Shown here one piece after another: positions 42,182 through 47,046 of a stretch of DNA of 64,000 nucleotides. A model generated the notes under the pieces. It searched no databases. It had not been told where the DNA came from and worked only from the letters and a program-made list of their open reading frames with translations. A program made the translations under genes and the position numbers. Every line of letters begins with the position of its first letter. The stretch's first letter is position 1. The stretch comes from Bacteroidales bacterium (GTDB lineage: Bacteria > Bacteroidota > Bacteroidia > Bacteroidales > UBA12077), in assembly GCA_028282585.1 (NCBI GenBank), contig JANQHR010000020.1:55212-119211 (forward strand). The letters are read 5' to 3'.

Positions 42182-42607
42182 ATGGATAACTCTACACCTA
42201 AAGTAACCGGAATTGGAGGAATATTCTTCTTTTCCAAAAATCCCAAAGAACTAAAAGAATGGTATAGCAAAAACCTGGGATTAGCTGTTAATGAATATGG
42301 CTCAAGCTTTGAATTCAGAAATGCACACCGTCCAGATGAAATCAATTACCTACAATGGAGCCCATTTGAAGAAAATAGTGATTATTTTAAACCATCGGAA
42401 AGAGAGTTTATGATCAACTACCGGGTTCAGAATATTGAAGGATTGGTTCAAAAACTAAAAGAAAACGGTGTAACCATCGTGGATGAAATTGAAGAATACG
42501 AATATGGGAAGTTTGTACACATTATGGGACCCGAAGGTACTAAAATTGAACTTTGGGAACCTATTGATCGCGTATTTACTGAAATGGGTGGTGAAACCAC
42601 TAAATAG
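42182..42607 (+). CDS. VOC/glyoxalase family protein
   Basis: KVTGIGGIFF...WY...FMINYRV...YGKFVHIMGPEGTKIELWEP. Confidence 0.9.
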   Translation: MDNSTPKVTGIGGIFFFSKNPKELKEWYSKNLGLAVNEYGSSFEFRNAHRPDEINYLQWSPFEENSDYFKPSEREFMINYRVQNIEGLVQKLKENGVTIVDEIEEYEYGKFVHIMGPEGTKIELWEPIDRVFTEMGGETTK

Positions 42608-42644
42608 CATGTAATTTAATCTGGTTATTTCTTTTTTTTCTTCA

Positions 42645-42676
42645 TTTGCAACATCAGTGCATTTGGAGTATATTTG
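42645..42676 (+). promoter_or_regulatory. Sigma70 promoter TTTG-N20-TATATTTG with overlapping candidate Fur/Zur-type operator TGCAAC-ATC-AGTGCA (42647-42661)
   Basis: Canonical Bacteroidota -33/-7 spacing; imperfect TGCAAC-N3-GTTGCA palindrome inside the promoter. Confidence 0.65.
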
Positions 42677-42681
42677 TATTT

Positions 42682-43101
42682 ATGGAGCCTGTTGATATTT
42701 TAACAAGTCGTAACCTAAAAAGAACAAGTTGCAGAGAAGGAATTATTAAAATTATAATAGCTTCCAAAAATGCTCTTTCAGAAAATGAAATTCGAGAAAA
42801 ACTAGATGGGAATTACAATAGAACTACATTTTACAGGTCGTTTAAAACGCTCGAAGAAAACAAAGTTATACACAAAATTGTTGTAAATAACCAATTGGTA
42901 AAGTATGCTCTTGATAATTCGATTACACAGAAAAAGGAACATGCGCATTTTTTTTGTAAGAAATGCAATGTAATTCAATGTTTAGATTCTGTTTTAATTA
43001 AAAAGCCTAAGTTACCAGATGGTTATAGCGTAACTGAATCAGAGTATATTATTAAAGGATTTTGTAAATTGTGTAAAGAAAACACAGATAAAGATTGGTA
43101 A
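42682..43101 (+). CDS. Fur-family (Zur-like) transcriptional repressor
   Basis: RTTFYRSFKTL, HAHFFCKKC and GFCKLC (two CxxC); start placed at ATG 42682. Confidence 0.92.
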   Translation: MEPVDILTSRNLKRTSCREGIIKIIIASKNALSENEIREKLDGNYNRTTFYRSFKTLEENKVIHKIVVNNQLVKYALDNSITQKKEHAHFFCKKCNVIQCLDSVLIKKPKLPDGYSVTESEYIIKGFCKLCKENTDKDW

Positions 43102-43487
43102 GAATAAATAAACATATAGCTTTCTCTTTACTCGGATTATTCTTATTCCCTATTATTTACCAACCCGTACATTCCAATTGGCATCATTCGGTAAAAAACT
43201 CTCAAACCAATCAAATTCATTACAACCATTCTTGTTGTTCGCATTCACAGACTTCAATGCATACTTACCCTAAAGGGTTAAGTGAAATTGGACCATTTAA
43301 TGAAAATGAAGAACAGTGCCCTGTTTGCGAATATCAAATATCAATTAATAACTTGCCATTACTTTCAAATCTTAATTATACAGTTCGGAGAATAGATATT
43401 AATTATACCGAAGTTGCAATAACTCGGTTTATTTCATCTGTTGTTTCTATAGAATCACCTCGGGCACCGCCAATTCAATTAGTATAA
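43095..43487 (+). CDS. Exported His/Cys-rich upstream ORF with C-terminal RAPP arrest motif (DUF2946/CruR-like)
   Basis: N-terminal hydrophobic segment; HSNWHH...HYNHSCCSH; CPVC; SPRAPP four residues before the stop; TTG start overlapping the fur stop. Confidence 0.8.
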   Translation: MVRINKHIAFSLLGLFLFPIIYQPVHSNWHHSVKNSQTNQIHYNHSCCSHSQTSMHTYPKGLSEIGPFNENEEQCPVCEYQISINNLPLLSNLNYTVRRIDINYTEVAITRFISSVVSIESPRAPPIQLV

Positions 43488-43534
43488 CTCCATTGCAGTT
43501 TTCTTAAGTAGTTTGTAAACTCAATTAATTAAGT

Positions 43535-45943
43535 ATGCATAAAATTACTGTGCTTTTTGTATTGGCACACATTCTGATTATATCCGGATATAGCCAGGGT
43601 AAATATATTTTATCCGGTTTGGTCGTTGATGAAAATAACCAGGCCCTGCCCGGAGCTTCCGTTCAATTAAGCTCAGGTAAAGGAACTGTTACCAATTCCG
43701 AAGGTAAATATGTGATAAATGATTTAGATAATGGAATATATGAAATAAAAGTATCATACATAGGCTATAAAACTCATTTGGATACAATTGTAATTGATGG
43801 AAATAAAGCATATAGAATCAAAATGCTTTATTCGCCATTAGATTTGCAAGAGGTTGTTGTTACAGATAACTACGTTGAGACAAGGAAAAAAGAAGAATCA
43901 TTGAATATAGAGATTGCAAACAAAAGATACCTTCAGCAAAATCTTGGTGGAAGCCTGATGAAAACAATTGAAAGGCTACCAGGAGTAAGTACTATTGATA
44001 TTGGTTCAGGGCAATCGAAGCCCGTAATCAGAGGGCTTGGATTTAATCGTATTGTTGTAGTAGAAAACGGGATCAAACACGAAGGACAACAATGGGGAGC
44101 CGACCATGGCCTGGAAATTGACCAGTTTGCTATAGATAAGCTTGAAGTTATAAAAGGACCTTCATCTCTTATACATGGATCAGATGCTTTGGGCGGAGTA
44201 ATAAACGTTAAGCAAAATTCCGTACCAATAAATAATTCTGTTGGGGGAACCATTGATTTAATTGGAAAAACTAATAATAATTTAATCGGAACTTCATTTT
44301 CTGTATATGGAAGGAAAAATTGGTTATTTGCTGATTTACGCGTAACCATGCTTGATTATGGCGACTACAAAGTACCAACTGACAGTATTGACATTTACTC
44401 ATACAAAGCCGCAATACACAATAACCAATTGCGCAATACGGCAGGTGAAGAAAAGAACCTACACTTTACAATTGGAATTATTCAGGACGATTTTCAAAGC
44501 AAGTTTTTTATAAGCAATGTATACAGTAAAAATGGTTTTTTTGCCAATGCGCATGGCTTGGAACCTCGAAATGTTGATACGGATGTTCATGATAAATCAA
44601 ACAGGGATATTCTTTTTCCTTACCATGAGGTTAATCATTTTAAAGTAATTAATCAGAGTCTATGGGAAATGGGTAAGTTTCGGTTTAAATCTGATTTAGG
44701 GTTTCAACGAAATTTCAGGCAAGAATGGAGCGAATATGTAAGCCATGGATACATGCCCCCTGTTTTTCCTGACAACCTTAAATTTAATGCAGATATTGAA
44801 CGCCAGTTTGATAAACATATTTATAACGGAAATCTTTTAATACGGTATACACATAATGAAAAAACCGCCTTCACATTCGGATTAAATGGCAGTTATCAGG
44901 ATAATGATATAAACGGTCGAGGATTTATTATTCCAGCCTTTGAACAACTGAATATGGGTGTTTTCTTACTGGCAAAATATGAGATCAACCCTATAAATGT
45001 TTTACAACTTGGAATAAGATACGATCATGGTAAGATTAAAACCGAAAGTTATAATGACTGGTTTCAATCTCCTGTTTTAATTGGCAGCGATACCACACTT
45101 GCACATTTGCAAAGGGCTTATGGTTTAAACCGTAACTATTCAAATATTTCCTGGTCTGTTGGATATAATTATAATCAGGAAAAATTATCGTTCAAAACCA
45201 ATATTGGTAGAAGTTTCCGTATACCAATTGCTAAAGAACTGGCTGCAAATGGTGTAAATTATCATAACTTTAGTTATGAAGTTGGCGATCCTGATTTATC
45301 TCCTGAAATTTCTTATCAACTTGATTTAGGACTTGAGTACCATTTAAAGAAGTTTGCCGTTGGTGCAACTCCTTTTGTAAACTATTTTACCAACTATATT
45401 TACCTTAATCCCAGTTCCGAATTCGACAGACTTTACGGAAATGGGAATCAGGTATTTTATTATACCCAAAGCGAAGTATTTAGGTATGGCGGTGAATTAC
45501 ATGCACATTATCAATTATTAAAATCAATAAAACTTGGTGTGATTGGTGAATATGTTTATTCCGAGCAGGTTTCAGGAGAGAAAAAAGGATTTACTTTACC
45601 CTTTTCTCCTCCAGCATCAGCAATTTTTAACATTAAGTATCAAAAACAACATCTAGGTTTTTTAAAAAATGTGTATTTATCCGTAGATTATAGGATAACC
45701 GCATCGCAAACCAATATTGTGCCTCCCGAAGAAACAACAGATGGTTATCAATTAATAAATATAAGCTTGGGCGGAGAAATAAGTTTAAAAAAACAAAACT
45801 TGAGCATTTCTGCACAAGTACAAAATCTTTTTAATACCAAACATTTTAGTCATACCAGCTATTACAGGCTGATAAATGTACCCGAACCGGGACGAAACTT
45901 TGTTTTAAATGTTTCTATTCCATTTTCGGGTAAAATAAATTAA
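43535..45943 (+). CDS. TonB-dependent receptor, probable metal (Zn/Ni/Co) uptake
   Basis: Signal peptide; CarboxypepD_reg-like domain (GLVVDENNQALPGASV); plug KPVIRGL...EGQQWGADHG, LEVIKGPSSL; C-term PEPGRNF. Confidence 0.93.
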   Translation: MHKITVLFVLAHILIISGYSQGKYILSGLVVDENNQALPGASVQLSSGKGTVTNSEGKYVINDLDNGIYEIKVSYIGYKTHLDTIVIDGNKAYRIKMLYSPLDLQEVVVTDNYVETRKKEESLNIEIANKRYLQQNLGGSLMKTIERLPGVSTIDIGSGQSKPVIRGLGFNRIVVVENGIKHEGQQWGADHGLEIDQFAIDKLEVIKGPSSLIHGSDALGGVINVKQNSVPINNSVGGTIDLIGKTNNNLIGTSFSVYGRKNWLFADLRVTMLDYGDYKVPTDSIDIYSYKAAIHNNQLRNTAGEEKNLHFTIGIIQDDFQSKFFISNVYSKNGFFANAHGLEPRNVDTDVHDKSNRDILFPYHEVNHFKVINQSLWEMGKFRFKSDLGFQRNFRQEWSEYVSHGYMPPVFPDNLKFNADIERQFDKHIYNGNLLIRYTHNEKTAFTFGLNGSYQDNDINGRGFIIPAFEQLNMGVFLLAKYEINPINVLQLGIRYDHGKIKTESYNDWFQSPVLIGSDTTLAHLQRAYGLNRNYSNISWSVGYNYNQEKLSFKTNIGRSFRIPIAKELAANGVNYHNFSYEVGDPDLSPEISYQLDLGLEYHLKKFAVGATPFVNYFTNYIYLNPSSEFDRLYGNGNQVFYYTQSEVFRYGGELHAHYQLLKSIKLGVIGEYVYSEQVSGEKKGFTLPFSPPASAIFNIKYQKQHLGFLKNVYLSVDYRITASQTNIVPPEETTDGYQLINISLGGEISLKKQNLSISAQVQNLFNTKHFSHTSYYRLINVPEPGRNFVLNVSIPFSGKIN

Positions 45944-45964
45944 ACATAAATTAAATATAAAATT

Positions 45965-46408
45965 ATGAAAACAAAGACCATTCAATTTTTAGCAATTGCA
46001 TTTATTGCAGGATTAATATTCATATCATGCGAAGAAGATAACGATGATAATCAAAAACCGGTGATATCTAATCTCGAAGTTGGGCATAACGATACGATTC
46101 ATGTTGGAGAAGGAATTCATTTGGATTTTGAGGTTTCTGACAATGAACACCTGGATTATTACAAAATAACGATCCATCATGAAGAGGACCATAAAAAATT
46201 CTTTTCAGAAACGGAATGGGAATTTGACAGTACGTTTACCGAAATTTCTGGTTTAAAAAACTACACGGTCCATCATCATGATATATTAGTACCGGAAAAT
46301 GCAGAATTGGGTGAATACCATTTTCATTTATCCGTTGCTGATGAAGCGGGAAACCTTGCTGAGGTAGAAAAAGAACTTGTTATGGCCGCAGAAGATGATC
46401 ATCATTAA
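45965..46408 (+). CDS. His-rich lipoprotein (DUF4625-like)
   Basis: Lipobox FIS/C; IHHEEDH, VHHHDILVP, GEYHFHLSVAD, C-terminal DDHH. Confidence 0.8.
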   Translation: MKTKTIQFLAIAFIAGLIFISCEEDNDDNQKPVISNLEVGHNDTIHVGEGIHLDFEVSDNEHLDYYKITIHHEEDHKKFFSETEWEFDSTFTEISGLKNYTVHHHDILVPENAELGEYHFHLSVADEAGNLAEVEKELVMAAEDDHH

Positions 46409-46421
46409 TAATAGTAATTAA

Positions 46422-46442
46422 TTCGGGGGATAATCCCCCGAA
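46422..46442. other. Intercistronic GC-rich hairpin
   Basis: TTCGGGGGA-TAA-TCCCCCGAA perfect 9-bp stem between the two lipoprotein genes. Confidence 0.7.
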
Positions 46443-46461
46443 AACTTATAACAAGTAAACC

Positions 46462-46950
46462 ATGAGTAATTATACAAAACTTTTTCTGTTAATTGTTTCA
46501 TTCGCTGTTATACTATCGTGTGAAGAAGATTCAAAAGATGATATGAAGCCCGCAATAGATTTATCTATCACGGATGCATTTCCGGTTAATTGTGATACCA
46601 TATATTTTGGTGAAACTTTTGTTTTAAAAGTACTATTTACTGATAATGTCGAACTAGGGGCATTTAGTTTCGATATTCATCATAATTTCGACCATCATTC
46701 GCATAGCACTGAAGTAACTGAGTGTAATACTGATCCGGATAAAGAACCTGTTAATCCATATGTTTTTATACAAGATTATGATATTCCGCAAGGATTAACA
46801 GAATATGAAACTAATATAGAAATAAATATTCCATCTGCAGAAAATAGTAATTTATTCGACGAAGGAGATTATCATTTCTTTATAAGTTTAACAGATAAGC
46901 AAGGTTGGTCAACTCAAAAAGGATTAAGCATTAAGATGCTTCATCGTTAG
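46462..46950 (+). CDS. DUF4625-like lipoprotein
   Basis: Lipobox ILS/C; DIHHNFDHHSHST, GDYHFFISLTDKQGW. Confidence 0.85.
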   Translation: MSNYTKLFLLIVSFAVILSCEEDSKDDMKPAIDLSITDAFPVNCDTIYFGETFVLKVLFTDNVELGAFSFDIHHNFDHHSHSTEVTECNTDPDKEPVNPYVFIQDYDIPQGLTEYETNIEINIPSAENSNLFDEGDYHFFISLTDKQGWSTQKGLSIKMLHR

Positions 46951-46968: not shown

Positions 46969-47046
46969 AATCCCTCTAAATCTTCTTTTCGAGAAAGGGG
47001 AAGTACAAAATATTTCTCCCTTGGAGAAGGGAGATACAGAGGGATT
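46969..47046. repeat. REP-like composite palindrome
   Basis: AATCCCTCT...AGAGGGATT outer arms with internal hairpins (TCTCCCTT-GGAG-AAGGGAGA). Confidence 0.65.

What the first reader, a model, noticed from the sequence alone, without database searches (positions are those of the whole stretch)
42645..46950. Two-tier metal-uptake operon: Fur-family repressor + RAPP arrest uORF + TonB-dependent receptor + His-rich lipoproteins
Seen: promoter, Fur-family gene, a 130-aa ORF (hydrophobic N-terminus, His/Cys tract HSNWHH..HYNHSCCSH, CPVC, RAPP at 43461-43472), then 47 nt later a TBDT and two DUF4625-like lipoproteins. Established: signal + CxxC + C-terminal RAPP is the layout of DUF2946 uORFs such as Bordetella CruR, which controls a downstream copper-related TBDT by ribosome stalling; RAPP/RAGP are arrest motifs in ApdA, ApdP and SecM. 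Inference: a Bacteroidota circuit in which the repressor reads cytoplasmic metal and the nascent exported peptide reads periplasmic metal or export status. The His-rich partners suggest Zn/Ni/Co rather than Cu. I am not aware of this being characterised in Bacteroidota.
Basis: partly seen in the sequence, partly recalled or inferred. Interest (0 to 1): 0.85.

Follow-up and report, generated by a model that had tools for sequence, protein, structure and literature searches.

The report
Fur repressor plus RAPP stalling leader operon
A small gene ending in the ribosome-stalling motif Arg-Ala-Pro-Pro sits between a metal-repressor gene and an outer-membrane importer gene in a Bacteroidia genome; it is a distant relative of the copper-sensing leader peptides CruR and CutF, so the operon probably has two layers of metal control, none yet tested at the bench.

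Summary
The 130-codon ORF (43095-43487) belongs to a conserved family. Of 152 proteins checked, 149 end in RAPP or RGPP. The CxxC-to-RAPP gap is exactly 44 residues in 138 of 140.

Pfam DUF2946 misses the window protein. Two family members pass its cut-off, and a profile-profile comparison with Pfam-positive DUF2946 proteins gives 96.8% probability. It is therefore a divergent CruR/CutF-type leader.

Of 27 orthologous TonB receptors examined, 25 have such an ORF directly upstream. A Fur-family gene abuts it in 13 of 21 loci. That gene is preceded by a conserved 7-1-7 palindrome, TGCAACAnTGTTGCA, overlapping the promoter.

In this genome RAPP/RGPP is absent from 2,899 long ORFs. It occurs near the C-terminus of five small ORFs, all upstream of TonB-receptor or RND-pump genes.

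Stalling, the metal (zinc favoured) and the coupling mechanism are inferred. No conserved RNA hairpin was found.

Surveys already list such leaders upstream of TonB-type genes (PMC12992588) and list Bacteroidota among phyla with CutF-like proteins (PMC9973294). This scan noted similar leaders elsewhere. New variant of a known kind; moderate interest.

The parts
42645..42676 (+). Putative Bacteroidota-type promoter: -33 TTTG (42645-42648) and -7 TATATTTG (42669-42676). It ends 5 nt before the Fur ATG, so the mRNA may be leaderless.
   Evidence: Read from the sequence. The same layout holds in relatives, where a TTTGCA lies 4-6 nt before the ATG. The consensus itself is recalled, not tested.
42647..42661 (.). 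Operator-like 7-1-7 palindrome, TGCAACATCAGTGCA in the window. It has 3 mismatches to the family consensus TGCAACAnTGTTGCA and ends 20 nt before the Fur ATG.
   Evidence: One search places it at G000:C16:97858-97872, which is window 42647-42661. In 18 related loci the box has 1 mismatch or fewer in 15 and lies 18-20 nt from the ATG in 15.
42682..43101 (+). Fur-family transcriptional regulator, 139 aa. Its stop codon overlaps codons 2-3 of the next ORF.
   Evidence: Pfam PF01475 E 1e-10, 42.2 bits. All NCBIfam Fur/Zur/PerR equivalogs score far below their cut-offs. PDB Fur and PerR match at 1.8e-7 to 2.6e-4. Invariant HxHFxCxxC...C and GxCxxC; a Cys in TxCRE in 18 of 19 orthologues.
43095..43487 (+). 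Leader ORF, 130 aa, TTG start: a divergent DUF2946/CruR-type candidate ribosome-arrest peptide.
   Evidence: 154 cluster representatives at E<=1e-3. Invariant H26, C75, R123, P125, P126. hhalign 96.8% against Pfam-positive DUF2946 proteins. TTG start conserved in 12 of 12 loci where the N-terminal motif was found.
43098..43205 (+). N-terminal hydrophobic helix (residues 2-37) carrying the conserved FPIxFQxxHxxxHH, including H26 (43170-43172) and H30 (43182-43184).
   Evidence: AlphaFold2 on the 144-sequence alignment gives a helix at 2-37 with block pLDDT 87-93. Conservation. Whether it is a cleaved signal peptide or a membrane anchor was not decided.
43317..43328 (+). CPVC motif (C75-C78), the candidate metal-binding site, 44 residues before RAPP.
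   Evidence: C75 invariant and C78 at 90% or more. Spacing is 44 in 138 of 140 proteins and in 9 of 12 further loci.
43461..43472 (+). RAPP codons (R123-P126), the candidate arrest site, followed by 4 codons and a stop.
   Evidence: RAPP/RGPP in 149 of 152 proteins. Synonymous codon variation between loci. RAPP arrest shown for CruR in vitro in PMC12992588 (passages).
43488..43534 (+). 47-nt spacer between leader and receptor. It has no predicted terminator and no significant RNA structure. A CTCAAT lies 18 nt before the ATG.
   Evidence: The spacer is 30-351 nt in relatives.
43535..45943 (+). TonB-dependent receptor, 802 aa.
   Evidence: Pfam CarbopepD_reg_2, Plug and TonB_dep_Rec_b-barrel. 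Best NCBIfam match is ZnuD at 142.5 bits against a cut-off of 950. Nearest PDB entries are ZnuD 4rdr (4.5e-17) and OprC (3.5e-14).
45965..46408 (+). DUF4625 lipoprotein 1, 147 aa, with lipobox ...ISC followed by EEDNDD. Predicted surface 'lid' of the receptor.
   Evidence: Pfam PF15418 E 9.8e-27. The lid role of DUF4625 is proposed for BT1419/BT1420 in bioRxiv 10.1101/2023.03.17.533168 (passages).
46462..46950 (+). DUF4625 lipoprotein 2, 162 aa, with a conserved IHxNFDHHSHSTE motif (H80, N82, F83, H86, H88, T90, E91 invariant) and an invariant Y-H in the G(D/S)YH(F/L) motif.
   Evidence: Pfam E 6.4e-36. Alignment of 15 orthologues.

Best explanation
The region is one operon: promoter and operator, Fur-family repressor gene, leader ORF, TonB-dependent receptor, and two DUF4625 lid lipoproteins.

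Layer 1 (inferred from family knowledge and a conserved site). The metal-loaded Fur-family protein binds the 7-1-7 palindrome that overlaps the -33 element of its own promoter and shuts the operon off.

Layer 2 (inferred by homology with CruR). The leader is translated from a weak TTG start that overlaps the repressor's stop codon. [quoted passage not shown] At that moment the CxxC motif, always 44 residues behind, has just left the exit tunnel.
- When the metal is scarce, the stalled ribosome keeps the transcript productive and the receptor and lids are made.
- When the metal is available, the nascent chain binds it through C75/C78, possibly with H26/H30. The stall is released and expression of the downstream genes drops. 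Rho-dependent polarity is the most likely route.

This design would let the cell keep making a little repressor without making the importer. The metal is most likely zinc, but copper, nickel and cobalt are not excluded.
For: Shown here:
1. The leader is a conserved protein-coding gene. There are 154 cluster representatives at E<=1e-3. H26, C75, R123, P125 and P126 are invariant. RAPP codons vary synonymously.
2. RAPP or RGPP is present in 149 of 152 proteins, 1-12 residues from the end in all but one. The CxxC-to-RAPP gap is 44 in 138 of 140, and 44, 43 or 42 in 9, 2 and 1 of 12 further loci.
3. It is homologous to DUF2946. At E<=1, 44 of 144 members match PF11162. Two members pass the cut-off end to end. 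hhalign gives 96.8%, E 3.1e-10, and aligns the helix, a conserved His near its end, CxxC and RAPP.
4. Position is conserved. 25 of 27 examined receptor orthologues (45% identity or more) have the ORF directly upstream.
5. In this genome RAPP+RGPP occur 0 times in 2,899 ORFs of 200 aa or more, against about 5 expected. Five of the seven occurrences in any six-frame ORF of 60 aa or more lie at the C-terminal end of small ORFs upstream of receptor or RND-pump genes.
6. The Fur-family gene abuts the leader in 13 of 21 loci. The palindrome has 1 mismatch or fewer in 15 of 18 loci, at a fixed distance from the ATG.
7. Other near-perfect copies of the palindrome, five places in four of five genomes searched, lie inside ORFs of 290 aa or more, so the regulon looks local.
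8. rho and efp are present. The C/G ratio peaks at 1.5-2.0 around the stall site, against 0.75 for long ORFs.

From papers (passages read):
- CruR's CXXC and RAPP, 45 residues apart, control a downstream TonB receptor through Rho (PMC9426467).
- CruR arrests in vitro with Pro-3 in the P site and Pro-4 in the A site (PMC12992588).
- RAPP-like leaders from Bacteroidales and Flavobacteriales arrest in PURE systems (PMC10987492).
Against: - No experiment or expression data exist. No RNA run was listed.
- The window protein itself has no Pfam hit.
- The window's operator has 3 mismatches in one half-site, so repression here may be weak.
- The second Cys is lost in about 10% of members, which is odd for an obligatory CxxC sensor.
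- The spacer varies from 30 to 351 nt. It carries no conserved hairpin or terminator, and an in-silico stalled ribosome does not open the receptor's start region. The coupling step is therefore unexplained.
- The C-rich stretch may simply reflect Pro, His, Ser and Thr codons.
- The conserved N-terminal helix with His residues could point to a function of the finished protein.
- CutF, the other studied relative, works with the opposite sign: metal prolongs the stall.
- The receptor's metal is unassigned. ZnuD scores 142.5 bits against a cut-off of 950.
Confidence: 0.62

Rival explanations
1. Same arrest-peptide device but with CutF polarity. Metal binding prolongs the stall and turns the downstream genes on, so the receptor would be induced by the metal rather than by its scarcity.
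For: CutF, a DUF2946 member, works this way (PMC9973294 and bioRxiv 10.1101/2025.02.05.636593; passages and abstract). The leader has an N-terminal helix that could drive co-translational membrane targeting as in CutF.
Against: The downstream genes are an importer with lids, not a detoxifying enzyme. A Fur-family repressor in the same operon usually means repression at metal sufficiency (family knowledge). There is no stem-loop over the receptor start like the one CutF melts.
Confidence: 0.1
2. The small protein works as a finished product. It would be a membrane-anchored periplasmic metal-binding partner or chaperone of the receptor system, and RAPP would only slow translation or be incidental.
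For: The N-terminal helix and its FPIxFQxxHxxxHH motif are as conserved as the C-terminal motifs and are modelled with high confidence. The gene is always in the operon of the transporter.
Against: RAPP/RGPP is avoided in all 2,899 long ORFs of this genome and appears only at the ends of five leader-like ORFs. The middle of the protein (residues 38-70) is variable and modelled as disordered. The exact 44-residue ruler to the last residues is hard to explain for a folded mature protein. CruR and CutF were reported as barely detectable or degraded.
Confidence: 0.13
3. The leader monitors membrane insertion or secretion, like SecM or MifM. The stall is released by the pulling force of translocation, without any metal sensing.
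For: RAPP-type leaders were first found upstream of sec and yidC genes, including in Bacteroidota (PMC10987492). The leader has an N-terminal hydrophobic helix.
Against: The downstream genes are not Sec or YidC components. Invariant His and Cys residues at a fixed distance from the stall site point to a ligand. The family is homologous to metal-linked DUF2946 proteins.
Confidence: 0.06
4. Only the Fur-family repressor regulates the operon. The small ORF is a conserved gene with no role in controlling the receptor.
For: Six receptor loci have the Fur gene but no leader: two close orthologues (G263, G025) and two distant ones (G031, G055). The operator is well conserved.
Against: Eight of the first 21 loci have no Fur-family gene next to the leader. 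The RAPP motif is a demonstrated arrest sequence in relatives.
Confidence: 0.07

Closest known systems
CruR (Bp2923) of Bordetella pertussis, Pfam DUF2946/PF11162, leader of cruR-bfrG-bp2921 (PMC9426467; in vitro arrest in PMC12992588)
   Same: Both are small ORFs with a hydrophobic N-terminus, CxxC and C-terminal RAPP. RAPP lies 3 residues (CruR) or 4 residues (here) from the end, and the motif spacing is 45 against 44 residues. Both sit directly upstream of a TonB-dependent receptor and are homologous at profile level.
   Different: - The window protein is not detected by the Pfam model.
- It has an extra invariant His pair after the helix.
- The spacer is 47 nt here, and 30-351 nt in relatives, against 162 nt in CruR.
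- The genome is AT-rich, whereas the CruR locus is 71.6% G+C.
- The leader follows, and overlaps, a Fur-family gene.
- The downstream partners are DUF4625 lids.
- The metal is probably not copper.
- Nothing has been tested at the bench.
CutF of Rhodobacter capsulatus (cutFOG; DUF2946) (PMC9973294; bioRxiv 10.1101/2025.02.05.636593)
   Same: Both are exported or membrane-targeted nascent-chain metal sensors with a Cys motif about 45 residues before a C-terminal Pro-rich stall motif. Both act in cis on the next gene.
   Different: CutF has CxxxC and a PPP-type motif. Copper prolongs its stall, which melts a stem-loop over the Shine-Dalgarno site of a detoxifying oxidase gene. Here no such stem-loop is found, and the target is an importer.
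RAPP/RGPP uORFs upstream of TonB-dependent receptors in the survey of PMC12992588 (EMBO J 2025), and CutF-like proteins of Bacteroidota in the survey of PMC9973294
   Same: This is the same class: a small localisation-signal-bearing ORF with RAPP/RGPP near the C-terminus, upstream of a TonB receptor. The first survey calls the class universal in Gram-negative bacteria. The second lists Bacteroidota among the three main phyla.
   Different: The surveys are computational. I could not see their supplements or figures, so I cannot say whether this exact family is listed. They do not describe the Fur-family coupling, the operator, the TTG overlap or the DUF4625 partners in the passages I read.
Fur-family repressors with 7-1-7 operators (Fur, Zur, PerR boxes; recalled from the literature)
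   Same: The protein is in the Fur family, with two CxxC pairs and an HxH motif. Its operator is a 15-bp 7-1-7 inverted repeat overlapping the promoter.
   Different: The box sequence TGCAACAnTGTTGCA is unlike the Fur, Zur and PerR boxes as I recall them. The regulator appears to control only its own operon. It has a family-specific Cys (18 of 19 orthologues) in the first helix. No NCBIfam subtype fits.
ZnuD (Neisseria zinc receptor, PDB 4rdr) and OprC (Pseudomonas copper receptor)
   Same: These are the best sequence matches of the receptor among curated families and solved structures.
   Different: The matches are partial, covering the C-terminal barrel, and lie far below the family cut-off (142.5 against 950 bits). 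The receptor has an N-terminal carboxypeptidase-regulatory-like domain and works with DUF4625 lids.

Membership tests
DUF2946 (Pfam PF11162; CruR/CutF family) | Match of the protein itself to the Pfam model above the gathering cut-off (23.7 bits) | tested here: not met
   There is no Pfam hit at E<=1 for the window protein, and none in the whole genome at E<=10. In a phylum sample the model passes its cut-off in 4 of 401 genomes.
DUF2946 (Pfam PF11162; CruR/CutF family) | Homology to Pfam-positive members | tested here: met
   Family members P0207 (34.1 bits) and P0095 (28.6 bits) pass the cut-off over profile positions 3-117 of 117. At E<=1, 44 of 144 members match. hhalign of the family against five Bacteroidota ORFs picked by PF11162 (three over, two just under the cut-off) gives 96.8%, E 3.1e-10, over 105 columns.
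DUF2946 (Pfam PF11162; CruR/CutF family) | Conserved CXXC motif | tested here: met
   CPVC lies at residues 75-78. C75 is invariant and C78 is present in 90% or more. 140 of 152 proteins have CxxC.
DUF2946 (Pfam PF11162; CruR/CutF family) | C-terminal RAPP motif a few residues before the stop | tested here: met
   RAPP lies at residues 123-126 of 130. RAPP or RGPP is present in 149 of 152 proteins, and the most common tail length is 4 residues.
DUF2946 (Pfam PF11162; CruR/CutF family) | [quoted passage not shown] | tested here: met
   The gap is 44 residues in 138 of 140 proteins. It is 43-45 in the Pfam-positive Bacteroidota proteins, counted by eye on the sequences. CruR's value comes from PMC9426467.
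CruR-type regulatory mechanism | Ribosome arrest at RAPP | not testable with these tools
   There is only indirect support. RAPP/RGPP is avoided in 2,899 long ORFs of this genome. Arrest is shown for CruR and for Bacteroidales and Flavobacteriales RAPP-like leaders in heterologous PURE systems.
CruR-type regulatory mechanism | Metal-dependent release of the stall through the Cys motif | not testable with these tools
   No data. The invariant H26, H30 and C75 are candidate ligands.
CruR-type regulatory mechanism | Rho-dependent termination between leader and receptor | tested here: inconclusive
   rho is present. A C-rich, G-poor stretch surrounds the stall site. No intrinsic terminator was found. 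The spacer is only 47 nt and variable in relatives.
CutF/SecM-type mechanism | Stem-loop masking the downstream start that a stalled ribosome would melt | tested here: not met
   The fold of 43440-43560 has z +0.32 against shuffles. No shared hairpin appears in 20 loci. Constraining a stalled ribosome raised the accessibility of the start region by more than 0.05 in 4 of 20 loci, lowered it in 3 and left it within 0.05 in the rest.
Fur family (PF01475) | Pfam match above the cut-off; winged-helix plus dimerisation domain with Cys pairs | tested here: met
   42.2 bits against a cut-off of 23.1. CxxC...CxxC and HxH are invariant in 19 orthologues.
Fur family (PF01475) | Subtype (Fur, Zur, PerR, Nur, Irr) | tested here: inconclusive
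   PerR, Fur and Zur equivalogs score 25-40 bits against cut-offs of 167-220. PDB matches to Fur and PerR are of similar strength.
ZnuD zinc-piracy receptor (NF038289) | Score above the curated cut-off (950 bits) | tested here: not met
   142.5 bits. It is the best of 25 receptor families, but only over the C-terminal part.
DUF4625 (PF15418) TBDT lid lipoproteins | Pfam match; lipobox; gene adjacent to a non-SusC TonB receptor | tested here: met
   E 9.8e-27 and 6.4e-36. The lipobox Cys is followed by acidic residues. DUF4625-type genes follow the receptor in 15 of 20 related loci. The lid role itself is a prediction from bioRxiv 10.1101/2023.03.17.533168.

The most novel reading that the evidence does not exclude
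Bacteroidota may use families of RAPP/RGPP arrest peptides as a general, metal-specific post-transcriptional layer for envelope transporters. In this genome the motif would be reserved for that job: five leaders, two or more families, four receptor operons and one RND pump.

In the CxxC family, the nascent chain would build a His2Cys2-type site between the membrane-proximal HxxxH and the CxxC emerging from the tunnel. That would make it the first zinc-sensing nascent peptide.

Its translation would be slaved to that of a dedicated Fur-like repressor through an overlapping TTG start. One transcript could then express the repressor constitutively and the importer only on demand. All of this would happen in a phylum that does not rely on Shine-Dalgarno pairing, so the coupling step might differ from both CruR and CutF.
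Probability: 0.2. Interest if true: 0.75.

Novelty: new variant of a known kind. Interest (0 to 1): 0.5.

Why it matters
Metal import across the outer membrane of Bacteroidota is poorly understood. The substrate of the DUF4625-lidded receptors is not known.

This locus gives a compact, testable circuit made of:
- a dedicated Fur-family repressor with a new operator sequence;
- a nascent-peptide sensor with an exact 44-residue ruler;
- a receptor with His-rich lids.

If the leader works like CruR, it would extend metal-sensing ribosome arrest to a phylum with unusual translation initiation, and probably to a metal other than copper. It would also explain why RAPP/RGPP is nearly banned from the rest of the proteome.

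On the practical side, most family members are unnamed or labelled hypothetical in the sources searched. Pfam's DUF2946 model passes its cut-off in only 4 of 401 sampled Bacteroidota genomes, while the family profile built here finds 24. A better model would annotate many leaders.

Tried and rejected
- **Direct Pfam and NCBIfam scans of the leader.** They gave no family, only LIC10965_fam at E 0.2. NF047658 HYC_CC_PP, a name I recalled, matched 1 of 144 members at 0.0031 and does not cover this family. Flavobacteria-like RGPP relatives have no NCBIfam family either.
- **The search for related loci with the 144-row alignment.** It failed because no stretch was conserved enough. I fetched regions by coordinates instead.
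- **RNA switch.** MFE folds of 20 loci, a stalled-ribosome constraint, the Rfam scan, the terminator scan and the z-score fold gave no conserved structure.
- **Regulon hunt with the palindrome.** In four of five genomes searched, the other five places with 1 mismatch or fewer lie inside ORFs of 290 aa or more. In the own genome the best other sites have 2 mismatches and were not examined. No regulon that would name the metal was found.
- **Expression data.** No RNA holder was listed for 42600-46000.
- **Structure.** The AlphaFold2 model gave only a long N-terminal helix and an extended, moderately confident C-terminal part. No coordinates are returned, so a His/Cys cluster could not be checked. 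No fold search was run.
- **PDB search with DUF4625.** It gave nothing at E<=1.
- **Literature.** BT1419/BT1420 brought only the lid preprint, which gives no substrate in the passages read. Supplements of PMC9426467, PMC9973294 and PMC12992588, which list family members and neighbours, could not be opened and may already contain this family.
- **Complex prediction.** It was not used, because no binding claim is made.


Full report
**1. Observation**

The ORFs are as described.
- The Fur-family gene ends at 43101. Pfam FUR scores 42.2 bits.
- Alignment with 18 orthologues puts its start at ATG 42682, not at the TTG of 42646.
- The 130-codon ORF runs from TTG 43095 to 43487 and overlaps the Fur stop codon.
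- It carries CPVC at residues 75-78 and RAPP at 123-126 (nt 43461-43472).
- After 47 nt comes an 802-aa TonB-dependent receptor with CarbopepD_reg_2, Plug and barrel domains.
- Two DUF4625 lipoprotein genes follow.

**2. The small ORF is a conserved gene with a rigid motif geometry**

A word-indexed search found only two close relatives. An exhaustive HMMER search found 154 cluster representatives at E<=1e-3, almost all 105-135 aa and aligned end to end.

I checked 152 proteins: the window's own, 150 relatives and one unrelated repeat protein.
- 149 carry RAPP (142) or RGPP (7). The three exceptions have RDPP, RSPP or are the unrelated protein.
- The motif lies 1-12 residues from the end in all but one.
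- 140 carry CxxC.
- The gap between CxxC and RAPP is exactly 44 residues in 138 of those 140.

In a 144-row alignment, H26, C75, R123, P125 and P126 are invariant. F16, P19, Q23, H30, C78 and A124 are conserved at 90% or more. Between loci the four RAPP codons vary synonymously (CGN/AGR, GCN, CCN), so selection acts on the peptide.

AlphaFold2 on this alignment gives a confident helix at residues 2-37, a disordered middle, and an extended C-terminal third. Mean pLDDT is 74.5.

**3. Family**

- The window protein has no Pfam hit, and PF11162 finds nothing in the genome.
- However, 44 of 144 members match DUF2946 at E<=1.
- Two members pass its cut-off over the whole model (34.1 and 28.6 bits against 23.7).
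- UniRef names one member 'DUF2946 domain-containing'.
- hhalign of the family against five Bacteroidota ORFs picked by PF11162 (three over its cut-off, two just under; all from other classes) gives 96.8% probability, E 3.1e-10. It aligns the helix, a conserved His near its end, CxxC and RAPP.

So this is a divergent branch of the CruR/CutF family that the Pfam model mostly misses. In a sample of 401 Bacteroidota genomes, PF11162 passes its cut-off in 4. The family profile hits 24 at E<=1e-5.

A Flavobacteria-like genus holds RGPP-ending relatives with the 44-residue gap in 9 of the 10 loci read, again upstream of receptor-like genes. NCBIfam has no model for any of them.

**4. Context**

I examined 20 loci fetched around leader homologues from genomes of the same order.
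- 19 have a homologous receptor directly downstream. The twentieth is cut by a contig end.
- 12 have the Fur-family gene directly upstream.
- 15 have DUF4625 genes downstream.

I then searched from the receptor side. Of the 301 genomes, 49 have a match at E<=1e-120.
- At 45% identity or more, I examined the upstream DNA of 27 places. Of these, 25 have the R[AG]PP ORF. Two (G263, G025) have the Fur gene directly before the receptor and no leader. Two more places were not examined.
- At 37-43% identity, 4 of 10 have the leader.

Three layouts therefore exist: Fur-leader-receptor, leader-receptor and Fur-receptor. This argues that repressor and leader are separable control modules of the same transporter. 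Several of these genomes are close kin (for example G011/G274 and G019/G160), so the counts are not independent.

**5. The repressor layer**

Upstream of the Fur-family gene lies a 15-bp 7-1-7 inverted repeat, TGCAACAnTGTTGCA.
- It has 1 mismatch or fewer in 15 of 18 related loci.
- It ends 18-20 nt before the ATG in 15 of 18.
- It overlaps a TTTG that fits the Bacteroidota -33 element.
- The window's copy (42647-42661) has three mismatches in one half-site.
- Other near-perfect copies, five places in four of five genomes searched, lie inside ORFs of 290 aa or more. The regulator therefore seems to serve only its own operon.

The subtype is open. PerR, Fur and Zur models all score far below their cut-offs. 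The protein has the two CxxC pairs and the HxH motif, plus a family-specific Cys in its first helix that 18 of 19 orthologues keep.

**6. The leader layer**

The leader's start is a TTG five codons before the conserved K/R-H-I-A motif in 12 of 12 loci where that motif was found. In the Fur-bearing loci among them it overlaps or abuts the Fur stop. Leader translation is therefore probably coupled to repressor translation.

The spacer to the receptor is 30-50 nt in 10 of 20 loci and 80-351 nt in the rest. I found:
- no conserved hairpin;
- no plus-strand terminator;
- no Rfam family;
- no gain in accessibility of the receptor start when a ribosome is fixed on RAPP;
- a window fold no better than shuffles.

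A CutF/SecM-type 'melt the hairpin' switch is thus not supported.

The CruR route, in which a stalled ribosome blocks Rho, cannot be tested here.
- rho and efp are present.
- The C/G ratio peaks at 1.5-2.0 within 60 nt of the stall codons in 21 loci, against 0.75 for long ORFs of the genome.
- That could also be a by-product of Pro, His and Ser codons.

**7. Genome-wide view**

In the window's genome, RAPP and RGPP occur in none of 2,899 ORFs of 200 aa or more, against about 5 expected. They occur only seven times in any six-frame ORF of 60 aa or more.

Five of the seven lie 2-6 residues from the end of ORFs spanning 126-136 codons between stops, each with a hydrophobic N-terminus and His-rich stretches.
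- One is this leader.
- One precedes a HlyD-type adaptor and an AcrB/Czc-type pump.
- Two directly precede other TonB receptors.
- One precedes a DUF6686 gene, with a further TonB receptor about 1.8 kb downstream.

The three linked to other TonB receptors (two directly upstream, one about 1.8 kb away) share a Cys-free motif, F(F)LHxH...HAHP(F/Y)(D/K)K, and have no Pfam or NCBIfam family.

**8. Which metal**

- The receptor's best curated match is ZnuD (142.5 bits against a cut-off of 950). The nearest solved structures are ZnuD and then the copper receptor OprC.
- The second lid has a conserved IHxNFDHHSHSTE motif, seven of whose residues are invariant, plus an invariant Y-H in G(D/S)YH(F/L).
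- The leader offers His and Cys ligands.

Zinc is the best guess, but it is a guess.

**9. What is known**

- CruR: CXXC and RAPP 45 residues apart. Copper relieves the stall and Rho terminates before the receptor gene (PMC9426467, passages). Arrest was confirmed in vitro (PMC12992588, passages).
- CutF: copper prolongs the stall and opens a stem-loop (PMC9973294, passages; bioRxiv 10.1101/2025.02.05.636593, abstract).
- Surveys list CutF-like proteins in Bacteroidota, and list TonB-like genes among the neighbours of CutF-like genes. They call RAPP/RGPP uORFs of TonB receptors universal in Gram-negative bacteria. I could not see their figures or supplements.
- RAPP-like leaders of Bacteroidales and Flavobacteriales arrest in PURE systems (PMC10987492, passages).
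- DUF4625 is a predicted receptor lid (bioRxiv 10.1101/2023.03.17.533168, passages).
- My searches found no bench study of a Bacteroidota member.
- Earlier notes of this scan describe similar CxxC/RAPP and His-rich RAPP leaders in other Bacteroidales genomes. I treated them as leads only.

**10. Verdict**

The compartment split, the metal and the coupling mechanism are open. The kind of device is already known.

What this window adds:
- a translationally coupled, dedicated Fur-family repressor with a new operator;
- the modular layouts in relatives;
- the exact 44-residue ruler;
- the near-exclusive use of RAPP/RGPP for leaders in one genome.

Noticed in passing
G000 contigs outside the window: C92:35909-36319(-), C92:47211-47588(-), C147:26620-26982(+), C147:59904-60275(+) (loci L076-L079): Four more small ORFs end in RGPP or RAPP 2-6 residues before the stop. 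Each has a hydrophobic N-terminus and His-rich stretches. One lies upstream of a HlyD-type adaptor plus AcrB/Czc-type pump, two directly upstream of TonB receptors, and one upstream of a DUF6686 gene with a further TonB receptor about 1.8 kb downstream. Three share a Cys-free F(F)LHxH...HAHP(F/Y)(D/K)K motif. None has a Pfam or NCBIfam family.
   Followed up: partly
whole genome G000: RAPP and RGPP occur in none of 2,899 ORFs of 200 aa or more, against about 5 expected from composition. RAGP also occurs 0 times against 4.6 expected.
   Followed up: yes
window 43095-43101 and related loci: The leader starts with TTG five codons before the K/R-H-I-A motif in 12 of 12 loci where the motif was found. 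In the Fur-bearing loci among them it overlaps or abuts the Fur stop, which suggests termination-reinitiation coupling.
   Followed up: partly
window 43517-43522 and the same position in 8 related loci: A CTCAA(T) lies about 18 nt before the receptor ATG, preceded by a T-rich run. No function is assigned.
   Followed up: no
window 42669-42684: The -7-like element ends 5 nt before the Fur ATG, and 4-6 nt before it in relatives, so the repressor mRNA may be leaderless.
   Followed up: no
L048 (G069), L035 (G011), L050 (G274): The leader-receptor spacers of 351 and about 210 nt fold very stably (-122 and -70 kcal/mol). They look like inserted structured elements rather than part of the switch.
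   Followed up: no
window 47015-47034: A perfect hairpin, TCTCCCTTGGAGAAGGGAGA, lies after the last lid gene. It scores as a terminator for the convergent minus-strand gene only, because no T-run follows it on the plus strand.
   Followed up: no
L046 (G012) upstream of the Fur-family gene: Two copies of the operator palindrome lie in tandem about 50 nt apart.
   Followed up: no
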